Source: the human T2T-CHM13v2.0 reference genome, Homo sapiens. From it: a stretch of 64,000 nucleotides of DNA. The stretch spans positions 29,184,001-29,248,000 of the forward strand of contig CP068257.2 in the NCBI GenBank assembly GCA_009914755.4, in the 5' to 3' direction. The notes beneath the pieces are model-generated. The model was not told where the DNA came from, searched no databases, and saw nothing but the letters and a program-made list of their open reading frames with translations. Positions 52,496-53,172 of this stretch are shown piece by piece. How positions within the stretch are numbered: position 1 is the first letter of the stretch; each line of letters starts with the position of its first letter. Made by a program: the position numbers and the translations under genes.

Positions 52496-52765
52496 GGGTG
52501 CAGTGGCTCATGCCTGTAATTCTAGCACTTTGGGAAGCTGAGGCCAGTGGATCATGTGAGTCCAGGAGTTTGAGACCAGCCTGGGCAACATAGTGAAACC
52601 CCATCTCTAGAAAAATGAGCTGGGCATGGTGGTGTGCACCCGTAATCCCAGCTACTTGGCAGGCTGAAGTGGGAGAATTGCTTGAACCTGGGAGTTTCAG
52701 GCTGCAGTGAGCTGTGATCAGGCCACTGCACTCCTGCAGCCTAAGTGACAGAGGGAGACCCTATA
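52496..52765 (+). mobile_element. Alu (sense; older, AluJ/S-like) whose 3' end runs into a TA-rich tract
   Basis: Starts 'tgggtgcagtggctcatgcctgtaattctagcactttgggaagctgaggccagtggatcatgtgagtccaggagtttgagaccagcctgggcaacatagtgaaaccccatctc' and ends '...ctgcagcctaagtgacagagggagaccct'. Confidence 0.85.
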
Positions 52766-52920
52766 TATATATATGCATATGTTTGGGATTTATATATATA
52801 TCCCAAATATATATATTTATTATGCATATATATATGTACATATACACACACACATATATATTTGAATATATATACATATATGTGTATATATATATATATA
52901 TATATATATTTGAATCAGAG
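52766..52920. repeat. TA-rich complex repeat containing a near-palindrome centred on (TA)n
   Basis: Sequence 'atatatatatatgcatatgtttgggatttatatatatatcccaaatatatatatttattatgcatatatatatgtacatatacacacacacatatatatttgaatatatatacatatatgtgtatatatatatatatatatatatatt'. 'tttgggat' and 'atcccaaa' are reverse complements that flank a (TA)n run. Confidence 0.8.
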
Positions 52921-53055
52921 CAGAATTTGATTAGCCAGCCTGTTTGACACTTTATATCACAGAATGTAGACGATAAAATAATGTAATGATCCTTCAGGAT
53001 TATGCTGCATTGGCTCTTGCACAAGTCACATGGATATTTCCATCTTTCTTCTGTA
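52909..53055 (+). repeat. Copy of a ~145-bp unique segment (~90% identical to 54275-54420) embedded between the TA-rich tracts
   Basis: Compare 'tgaatcagagcagaatttgattagccagcctgtttgacactttatatcacagaatgtagacgataaaataatgtaatgatccttcaggattatgctgcattggctcttgcacaagtcacatggatatttccatctttcttctg' with 54275-54420. Confidence 0.7.
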
Positions 53056-53070
53056 TATATCCATATATAC

Positions 53071-53100
53071 AGGGTCTCCCTCTGTCACTTAGGCTGCAGG
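53071..53100 (-). repeat. 30-bp perfect inverted copy of the upstream Alu 3' end (52734-52763), forming a fold-back around the intervening ~307 bp
   Basis: 'agggtctccctctgtcacttaggctgcagg' is the exact reverse complement of 'cctgcagcctaagtgacagagggagaccct' at 52734-52763. Confidence 0.8.
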
Positions 53101-53172
53101 ATGTGTGTGTGTGTGTGTGTGTATATATATATATATATATATATATATATATATATATATATATATATATAC
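53101..53172. repeat. (TG)n(TA)n compound dinucleotide microsatellite
   Basis: Sequence 'atgtgtgtgtgtgtgtgtgtgtgtatatatatatatatatatatatatatatatatatatatatatatatatac'. Confidence 0.9.

What the first reader, a model, noticed from the sequence alone, without database searches (positions are those of the whole stretch)
52734..53172. Fold-back and templated-insertion structure at an Alu tail. A 30-bp perfect inverted repeat brackets TA-rich DNA plus a copy of sequence from 1.4 kb downstream.
The Alu 3' end 'cctgcagcctaagtgacagagggagaccct' (52734-52763) reappears as its exact reverse complement at 53071-53100. Between them lie a (TA)n-centred near-palindrome and a ~145-bp segment (52909-53055) that is ~90% identical to 54275-54420, which sits in unique context. 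(TG)n(TA)n microsatellites flank both copies (53101-53172, 54596-54696). This is the footprint of a replication-based rearrangement at a hairpin-prone TA tract (template switching, FoSTeS/MMBIR-like), not of transposition. Such AT-rich palindromes are known fragile/unstable sites.
Basis: seen in the sequence. Interest (0 to 1): 0.5.

Follow-up and report, generated by a model that had tools for sequence, protein, structure and literature searches.

The report
Split palindrome scar at Alu tail
An old Alu repeat in this primate-type DNA carries a neutral copying scar: its last bases were duplicated in reverse to form a palindrome, and 144 bases copied from 1.4 kb downstream lie inside it, which is a clear but ordinary example of DNA synthesis jumping between templates.

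Summary
The exact inverted repeat is 31 nt (52732-52762 / 53071-53101). The duplicated segment is 144 bp (52909-53052 vs 54270-54413), 91.0% identical and ungapped.

The inverted arm shares all five private changes of the host AluJ tail, so it was copied from this Alu. It is not a second Alu insertion. A probable Alu target-site duplication (12/15, p~0.002) brackets the whole structure, so everything between the Alu end and 53167 is secondary.

Deleting the 290-bp block 52763-53052 restores a perfect 80-bp palindrome (39-nt arms plus CC). The block is flanked by a 2-bp CT ambiguity, and the restored arm matches the AluJ consensus two bases further. My best reading has two steps:
- fold-back copying at the TA tract made the palindrome;
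- a filler insertion (TA-rich DNA plus the 144-bp templated copy) then split its left arm 9 nt from the centre.

The insertion is old, about as diverged as the window's AluS elements. That argues against marked present-day instability.

Replicative switching cannot be separated from break-repair synthesis, and neither can the order of events. I could obtain no orthologous sequence. This is a new instance of a known mutational process, of low interest.

The parts
52494..52762 (+). Host AluJ-type element. Its 3' end is truncated at ...GAGACCCT, and the consensus ...GTCTC-A(n) tail is missing.
   Evidence: 79% identity to an AluJo consensus written from memory, positions 5-277. Non-CpG divergence is 11.6% and CpG divergence 52%.
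52478..52492 (+). Probable 5' target-site duplication of the Alu (ATATTCACCCACTAT).
   Evidence: Best match to this flank in 52763-53500 is 12/15 at 53167-53181. Only 0.18% of random window 15-mers match that boundary as well.
52732..52762 (+). Outer 31 nt of the left palindrome arm (Alu tail, TCCTGCAGCCTAAGTGACAGAGGGAGACCCT).
   Evidence: Exact reverse complement of 53071-53101. Carries a 3-bp insertion plus 4 substitutions relative to the AluJ consensus.
52763..52908 (.). TA-rich, degenerate microsatellite part of the 290-bp inserted block. Contains the small palindrome TTTGGGAT/ATCCCAAA (52782-52789 / 52800-52807) and a repeat of the junction 14-mer ATATATATTTGAAT (52854-52867 = 52902-52915).
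   Evidence: TRF finds (TA)n at 74% matches. Fold, k-mer scan.
52909..53052 (+). 144-bp copy of 54270-54413 in direct orientation (templated insertion).
   Evidence: 131/144 identical, ungapped, E = 2e-52, and the only other copy in the window.
53053..53062 (+). Inner 8 nt of the left palindrome arm (GTATATAT, 53053-53060) plus the 2-nt centre CC (53061-53062). GT continues the AluJ consensus ...CCCTGT.
   Evidence: Removing 52763-53052 joins this to 52762 and gives 39-nt perfect arms. This is the only excision of 3060 tried that exceeds 31 nt. Self-palindrome 53051-53072 seen.
53063..53101 (-). Right palindrome arm: inverted copy of GTATATAT plus the 31-nt Alu tail.
53102..53171 (.). (TG)10.5 followed by a perfect (TA)25 microsatellite, ending at the probable 3' TSD.
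   Evidence: TRF, 100% matches.
53167..53181 (+). Probable 3' target-site duplication (ATATACACTCACAAT).
54270..54413 (+). Presumed template of the 144-bp insertion, in non-repetitive context 1361 bp downstream.
   Evidence: The flanks 53173-54270 and 54414-54600 have no other match in the window.

Best explanation
This is a fixed, ancient and probably neutral scar of template-switching DNA synthesis in the TA microsatellite that replaced the A-tail of an AluJ.

Shown:
- The inverted arm is a copy of this very Alu's tail.
- The 144-bp segment has one other copy in the window, 1.36 kb downstream in the same orientation.
- All of it lies between the Alu body and its probable 3' TSD.
- Removing the 290-bp block 52763-53052 restores a perfect 80-bp palindrome.

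Inferred mechanism:
1. A stalled fork or break arose in the self-complementary (TA)n next to the Alu end (...GAGACCCTGTATATAT).
2. The 3' end snapped back on the TA repeat with a minimal loop, or switched to the complementary strand. It copied about 39 nt backwards, then rejoined at (TG)n with 0-1 nt of microhomology. That produced the palindrome.
3. In the same episode or later, synthesis or repair 9 nt left of the palindrome centre picked up filler. The filler is TA-rich sequence plus 144 nt copied from 54270-54413. Synthesis then resumed at exactly the original position through a 2-nt CT microhomology, with no loss of sequence.
4. Later neutral substitutions and microsatellite slippage produced the present 9% divergence and the degenerate TA tract.

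I put ~0.65 on 'both features arose by local templated copying'. I put ~0.4-0.45 on this particular geometry and order (palindrome first or simultaneous, then split).
For: Origin of the inverted arm:
- All five private differences of the arm from the AluJ consensus (CTG insertion, GG>AA, C>T, C>G) are shared by the inverted arm.
- No other of the ~25 Alus in the window matches within 3 mismatches.

Boundaries:
- The TSD candidate is 12/15, exactly at the end of the (TA)25 tract, with an empirical chance of 0.0018.

Split-palindrome geometry:
- Excising 52763-53052 gives 39-nt perfect arms plus CC. It is the unique optimum among 3060 excisions, and its three equivalent placements reveal a 2-bp CT junction ambiguity.
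- The restored arm reads GAGACCCTGT, matching the AluJ consensus two bases further than the present contiguous sequence GAGACCCTAT.

The 144-bp copy:
- Ungapped, 91% identical, same orientation, 1361 bp away, with no third copy in 64 kb.
- The transition/transversion ratio of 9:4 fits ordinary neutral divergence.

Other support:
- A possible abortive-copy 'stutter': the junction 14-mer ATATATATTTGAAT recurs 48 bp upstream.
- Strong fold-back potential, z = -10.5.

Known processes of this kind:
- Short-range template switching that creates inverted repeats in human and great-ape genomes (PMC5453318, PMC7954356, PMC9435742).
- Germline multi-template MMBIR-type insertions (PMC8421209).
- Fold-back inverted insertions of 2 to ~150 bp at breaks, joined with 0-5 bp microhomology (PMC11724301).
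- AT/TA repeats as hairpin- and cruciform-forming replication barriers (PMC12972899, PMC9890227).
Against: - No orthologous or population sequence could be obtained, so no ancestral state is observed.
- The arms show 0 differences in 39 nt while the insert that splits them differs from its template at 13/144. The binomial probability of 0 in 39 at that rate is 0.025, and Fisher's p is 0.074. If the palindrome is at least as old as the insert, this needs chance, arm homogenisation or error-prone copying.
- The 8-nt extension of the arms is mostly TA. Only about three of its pairs are non-trivial, so chance is roughly 1/16 to 1/64 by my estimate.
- Junction microhomology is minimal at 0-2 nt.
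- The origin of the 146-bp TA-rich part is unexplained.
- The 144-bp pair could not be screened against a repeat library or a whole genome.
Confidence: 0.65

Rival explanations
1. The order is reversed, as in the reader's implicit model. The TA tract and the 144-bp templated insertion came first. Later a 3' end in the right-hand TA stretch folded back across a ~290-nt loop, paired with the TA repeat next to the Alu end, and copied the Alu tail. This produced a young 31-33-nt inverted repeat that brackets the older material.
For: It explains why the arms are perfect (0/31) while the 144-bp copy is 9% diverged. The ungapped repeat extends to 48 nt at 90% in the present contiguous register (I18).
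Against: - It needs a G at 52763 at the time of copying, since the inverted arm has the complementary C at 53070. That G must then have been lost.
- It treats CTGT at 53051-53054 and the unique 39-nt excision optimum as coincidence.
- Loops of ~290 nt are much longer than those documented for fold-back insertions. Examples are a 41-nt loop in PMC11724301 and templates within 100 bp in PMC8421209.
- The 12/17 match in the TA part is no better than expected for TA-rich DNA.
Confidence: 0.22
2. The two 144-bp segments are not template and copy. They are two members of a low-copy or dispersed repeat family, or 52909-53052 was copied from an unseen, closer paralogue outside the window. Their 9% divergence would then say nothing about the age of the insertion.
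For: It would remove the tension between perfect arms and a 9% diverged insert. No repeat library or genome-wide search was available.
Against: - There is no third copy in 64 kb.
- The pair is colinear and ungapped, in the same orientation, only 1361 bp apart.
- There are no TIRs, poly(A) or TSD at the copy.
- Two copies of an interspersed family only 9% apart would imply a young family, and none of those I know resembles this sequence (own knowledge, weak).
Confidence: 0.08
3. The inverted arm is the remnant of a second, independently inserted Alu in tail-to-tail orientation. Most of it was deleted and the remainder was homogenised with the host Alu by gene conversion.
For: Closely spaced inverted Alu pairs are known to be unstable and prone to deletion (own knowledge).
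Against: It requires 100% identity including a private 3-bp insertion and four private substitutions, with the identity ending exactly where the fragment ends. No further Alu sequence follows 53101. No other Alu in the window lies within 3 mismatches.
Confidence: 0.03
4. Assembly or cloning artefact: a chimeric fold-back read, or a palindrome rearranged during cloning.
For: Palindromes and TA repeats are hard to clone and sequence (PMC4057610, abstract).
Against: The 144-bp copy has 13 substitutions with a neutral-looking spectrum, and the TA tract is degenerate. Both indicate long evolutionary residence, not a recent artefact.
Confidence: 0.02

Closest known systems
Short-range template-switch mutations (TSMs; four-point model of Loytynoja & Goldman, PMC5453318; great apes PMC7954356; human haplotypes PMC9435742)
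   Same: A stretch is the exact reverse complement of immediately adjacent sequence and creates a perfect inverted repeat or hairpin. This corresponds to event type 1-4-3-2 / 3-2-1-4. No transposition hallmarks are present.
   Different: Those surveys deliberately filter out repeats and low-complexity DNA, whereas this event sits at an Alu/TA-microsatellite junction. Here the ancestral state is not observed. The palindrome is additionally split by a 290-bp insertion.
MMBIR/FoSTeS-type templated insertions (germline MMB-TIs, PMC8421209; complex insertions PMC5120786)
   Same: An insertion copied from nearby sequence, possibly built from several templates in one event, and fixed in the germline without gross rearrangement.
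   Different: MMB-TIs as operationally defined are inverted copies of templates within 100 bp. The 144-bp piece is in direct orientation, 1.36 kb from its template. Junction microhomology is only 0-2 nt.
Fold-back (snap-back) inverted insertions at double-strand breaks (PMC11724301; SD-MMEJ PMC5728401; Pol theta PMC4912351)
   Same: A 3' end primes on a nearby inverted microhomology, here the self-complementary TA repeat. It copies tens of nt and is joined to the other end with 0-5 bp of microhomology. The 39-nt length lies within the reported range of 2 to ~150 bp.
   Different: Those are experimental somatic or yeast events. This is an old germline allele, and the enzymes involved cannot be inferred from sequence.
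Palindromic AT-rich repeats (PATRRs) and Flex1-type AT repeats of fragile sites (PMC7999016, PMC12972899)
   Same: AT-rich, hairpin- or cruciform-capable DNA next to Alu-rich sequence. The perfect (TA)25 tract resembles Flex1-type repeats.
   Different: PATRRs are several-hundred-bp, nearly perfect AT-rich palindromes with little or no spacer (own knowledge). Here the arms are 31-39 nt and mostly Alu sequence, and they are now separated by about 300 nt. No evidence of breakage or translocation is available.

Membership tests
Short-range template-switch mutation (TSM) | A segment identical to the reverse complement of nearby sequence, beyond chance | tested here: met
   31-nt exact repeat, or 39 nt after excision. 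0 are expected in shuffles. The private Alu changes are shared.
Short-range template-switch mutation (TSM) | An ancestral or outgroup sequence lacking the inverted copy, so that the change is explained by one switch event | not testable with these tools
   No primate orthologue was retrievable: all came back empty.
MMBIR/FoSTeS templated insertion | Inserted sequence copied from a nearby template without loss of the template | tested here: met
   52909-53052 matches 54270-54413 at 91%, and both are present.
MMBIR/FoSTeS templated insertion | Microhomology at the switch junctions | tested here: inconclusive
   0-1 nt at 52908/52909, 2 nt (CT) at the block boundaries, and 0-1 nt at 53101/53102. 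Junctions inside TA repeats cannot be scored.
MMBIR/FoSTeS templated insertion | Replicative origin (fork collapse, Pol32/POLD3-dependent synthesis) | not testable with these tools
   Sequence alone cannot separate replicative switching from break-repair synthesis.
PATRR / fragile AT-rich palindrome | A long (hundreds of bp), nearly perfect AT-rich palindrome with little or no spacer | tested here: not met
   The arms are 31-39 nt and mostly non-AT Alu sequence. The present spacer is 308 nt between the exact arms.
PATRR / fragile AT-rich palindrome | Recurrent breakage, translocation or size polymorphism | not testable with these tools
   No population or long-read data are available. The 9% divergence of the insert argues for long persistence.
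Transposable-element insertion (for the 144-bp copy or the 290-bp block) | Terminal inverted repeats or a poly(A) tail, plus a target-site duplication | tested here: not met
   No TIRs or poly(A). Only a 2-bp CT ambiguity at the block ends. TTAA lies next to both ends of the source (54265-54268, 54413-54416) but not of the copy, and there are no piggyBac-like termini.
Alu-tail-derived microsatellite | A microsatellite lying between the Alu 3' end and the 3' target-site duplication | tested here: met
   The Alu ends at 52762, (TG)n(TA)n ends at 53171, and the TSD candidate at 53167-53181 is 12/15 with p~0.002.

The most novel reading that the evidence does not exclude
The 39-nt arms may have stayed perfectly identical for as long as the 9%-diverged insert has sat between them. 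That could happen if short inverted repeats are repeatedly re-copied from one another by template switching, giving concerted evolution of a split palindrome across a ~300-nt spacer. Alternatively, the 144-bp filler was synthesised so inaccurately that much of its 9% divergence dates from the event itself.
Probability: 0.1. Interest if true: 0.5.

Novelty: new member of a known kind. Interest (0 to 1): 0.2.

Why it matters
This is a clean, interpretable example of two known processes acting at one Alu-tail microsatellite: fold-back copying and templated filler insertion. Published template-switch surveys filter out this class of site. It shows that an Alu 3' end abutting a self-complementary (TA)n tract can seed a perfect palindrome. 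It also shows that such a palindrome can be neutralised by an insertion near its centre and then persist for a very long time.

If primate alignments confirm the order of events, the locus would be a dated natural example of palindrome formation followed by stabilisation. It has no evident functional consequence and changes no current understanding.

Tried and rejected
Searches for orthologous or other human copies, all empty:
- Exact look-up of 10 ORF translations spanning 52714-54588.
- Protein-database search with the 52-aa ORF over the source segment.
- Two metagenome scans, with the shared 24-mer and with the arm 26-mer.
- One scan of bacterial and archaeal genome contigs.

These collections appear not to hold this primate locus.

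Other checks:
- Rfam scan of the whole window found nothing at gathering threshold.
- Extra short templated pieces. The 13-mer TATATCCCAAATA (52797-52809 = 54932-54944) looked like a second templated insertion, but 12-13-mer matches to unrelated places are equally frequent (~0.6 expected by my calculation). Rejected as chance.
- piggyBac idea. TTAA lies next to both ends of the source segment, but there are no terminal inverted repeats and no TTAA at the copy. Rejected.
- Tandem duplication of a 1361-bp unit. Similarity stops after 144 bp. Rejected.
- Retrocopy. There is no poly(A), and a landing site 1.4 kb from the source in the same orientation is implausible. Rejected.
- Role of the (TG)n(TA)n tracts as homology for the switch. 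Only low-complexity similarity is present. Undecidable.

Full report
**Context.** The window is primate-type genomic DNA. It is 38% G+C, with about 25 Alu elements and several L1 ORF2 fragments. Rfam finds no RNA family.

**Checking the observation.**
Its exact reverse complement is at 53071-53100.
- The maximal exact inverted repeat is 31 nt, 52732-52762 / 53071-53101.
- With up to three mismatches allowed, these are the only two occurrences in 64 kb, against zero in 100 dinucleotide-preserving shuffles.
- The direct duplicate is 144 bp: 52909-53052 vs 54270-54413, 131/144 identical, ungapped, E = 2e-52, with no third copy in the window.
- TRF confirms a degenerate (TA)n at 52791-52909, a perfect (TG)10.5(TA)25 at 53102-53171, and a degenerate TA-rich tract (54605-54653) followed by (AC)19 (54649-54686). 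The last lies ~180-190 bp beyond the source segment, so 'flanking both copies' is only loosely true.
- A sensitive self and reverse-complement dot-plot of 52400-55000 shows that the inverted repeat and the 144-bp duplicate are the only features outside low-complexity DNA.
- As single-stranded DNA, 52725-53108 folds at -75.9 kcal/mol versus -36.0 +/- 3.8 for shuffles (z = -10.5). The Alu-tail arms form the outer stem.

**Where the inverted arm comes from.** The host element 52494-52762 aligns to an AluJo consensus (written from memory) at 79% over positions 5-277. Within the 31-nt arm it differs from that consensus by a 3-bp insertion (CTG) and four substitutions (GG>AA, C>T, C>G). All five changes are present in the inverted arm. 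None of the other Alus in the window comes within three mismatches. The inverted arm was therefore copied from this particular Alu after it had aged. It is not an independent Alu insertion.

**Boundaries of the secondary material.** The 15 nt just upstream of the Alu (ATATTCACCCACTAT, 52478-52492) find their best match in 52763-53500 at 53167-53181 (ATATACACTCACAAT, 12/15). That is exactly where the (TA)25 tract ends. Only 0.18% of random 15-mers from the window match that boundary as well. This is a credible target-site duplication. It implies that everything from 52763 to about 53166 arose inside what was once the Alu tail: the TA-rich DNA, the 144-bp copy, the inverted arm and (TG)n(TA)n. 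It also fixes 52909-53052 as the derived copy and 54270-54413 as the template.

**A refinement of the geometry.** The 18 nt between the 144-bp copy and the inverted arm form a self-palindrome with their neighbours: CTGTATATAT-CC-ATATATACAG, 53051-53072. I tested all 3060 excisions with a left breakpoint in 52740-52799 and a right breakpoint in 53020-53070.
- Only removal of 52763-53052 lengthens the perfect palindrome, to 39-nt arms around a CC centre, 80 bp in all. The removal can equally be placed at 52761-53050 or 52762-53051.
- Every other excision gives 31 nt or less.
- The three equivalent placements mean the 290-bp block is flanked by a 2-bp CT ambiguity, a microhomology.
- The restored left arm reads GAGACCCTGT. 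That agrees with the AluJ consensus (GAGACCCTGTCTC) two bases further than the present contiguous sequence GAGACCCTAT.

The extension is mostly TA, so only about three pairs are informative. By my estimate the chance level is 1/16 to 1/64. I treat this as moderate support, not proof.

**Most likely history.**
1. The AluJ inserted. *Inferred from the TSD.*
2. Its tail was replaced by (TA)n directly after ...CCCTGT. *Shown by the inverted copy, which preserves that junction.*
3. A stalled fork or break arose in the self-complementary TA tract. It let a 3' end snap back, or switch to the complementary strand, and copy 39 nt in reverse. The end then rejoined at (TG)n with 0-1 nt of microhomology and created an 80-bp perfect palindrome. 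*Inferred.*
4. In the same episode or later, a 290-bp filler entered 9 nt left of the centre. It consists of TA-rich sequence plus 144 nt copied from 1361 bp downstream. Synthesis resumed at the original position through CT, with no nucleotide lost. *Inferred.*

The junction 14-mer ATATATATTTGAAT recurs 48 bp upstream (52854-52867 = 52902-52915). This may be an abortive first copy of the template's first 7 nt. My rough chance estimate for that is about 0.06.

**Dating.** The 13 differences (9 transitions, 4 transversions, one in a CpG context) look like ordinary neutral change. Pairwise divergence is 9.0% (95% CI 4.9-14.9%), or about 4.5-4.8% per lineage. Against the same from-memory consensus, the window's AluS elements show 2.6-7.8% non-CpG divergence (median about 5%), and the host AluJ shows 11.6%. 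The insertion is therefore about as old as the AluS elements, which are tens of millions of years old by established Alu chronology. It formed when the host Alu was roughly half its present age. That argues against strong present-day instability. The perfect (TA)25 tract is, however, the kind of repeat that is usually length-polymorphic and can form hairpins (PMC12972899, PMC9890227).

**An unresolved tension.** The arms are identical, 0/31 or 0/39, while the insert is 9% from its template. At that rate the probability of no difference is 0.053 for 31 nt and 0.025 for 39 nt. Fisher's exact p is 0.13 and 0.074 respectively. The confidence ranges still overlap: the arms allow up to 7.4% and the insert at least 4.9%. 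There are five possible readings:
- chance;
- a younger inverted repeat made by a fold-back across a ~290-nt loop (the main rival), which then needs a lost G at 52763 and a coincidental CTGT;
- re-copying of one arm from the other by later template switching, as described for short inverted repeats (abstracts of PMC8604942 and PMC8794818);
- inaccurate synthesis of the filler;
- a closer template elsewhere in the genome.

These cannot be separated without outgroups.

**Comparison with known processes.**
- The palindrome matches the class of short-range template-switch mutations that create inverted repeats (PMC5453318). It also matches fold-back inverted insertions at breaks, which run from 2 to ~150 bp and are joined with 0-5 bp of microhomology (PMC11724301).
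- The filler matches templated insertions of the MMBIR/FoSTeS type, which occur as germline variants and can use several templates (PMC8421209). It is, however, in direct orientation and 1.36 kb from its template, outside that study's operational definition.
- It is not a PATRR. The arms are short, mostly not AT-rich, and now about 300 nt apart.
- It is not a transposon insertion. It has no TIRs, no poly(A), and no TSD beyond the 2-bp CT.

**Verdict.**
- The specifically replicative mechanism, the single-event assumption and the implied fragility are not established.
- The feature is a new instance of a known mutational process and is probably neutral.
- Interest is low (0.2). Its main value is as a tidy, datable example in a class of site that genome-wide template-switch surveys mask out.

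Noticed in passing
window 56312-56390: A second perfect hairpin unrelated to the finding. Its 35-nt arms (ATTTTTACTATAAATATGAAGGCAACACTATTCAG) lie at 56312-56346 / 56356-56390 around a 9-nt loop. It is not Alu and not low complexity, has no other copy in the window, and has a predicted RNA fold of -49 kcal/mol. It is the only other non-Alu perfect inverted repeat of 20 nt or more (arm starts no more than 1.5 kb apart) in 64 kb. It looks like a recent short-range template-switch product or a small palindromic element. There is no Rfam hit.
   Followed up: partly
window 54265-54268 and 54413-54416: TTAA tetranucleotides lie within one base of both ends of the 144-bp source segment. There are no terminal inverted repeats, and the copy is not flanked by TTAA, so a piggyBac-type origin was rejected. 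The coincidence remains unexplained.
   Followed up: partly
window 52782-52807: A small palindrome lies inside the TA-rich block: TTTGGGAT (52782-52789) and ATCCCAAA (52800-52807) around TTATATATAT. It may be a further small fold-back copy. The 13-mer TATATCCCAAATA also occurs at 54932-54944, at a level expected by chance.
   Followed up: partly
window 52854-52867 and 52902-52915: The junction between the TA tract and the 144-bp copy (ATATATATTTGAAT) is repeated 48 bp upstream. This could be an abortive first round of copying from the same template.
   Followed up: partly
window ~36050-36190, ~48990-49120, ~50196-50264: Several other TA/CA-rich compound microsatellites share k-mers with the one studied. 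The region is generally rich in such tracts.
   Followed up: no
window 23822-24436 (-) and 24708-25319 (+): Two L1 ORF2 fragments in opposite orientation lie about 270 bp apart. One covers the endonuclease N-terminus and the other the C-terminal part. This could be an inverted or rearranged L1, or two separate insertions.
   Followed up: no
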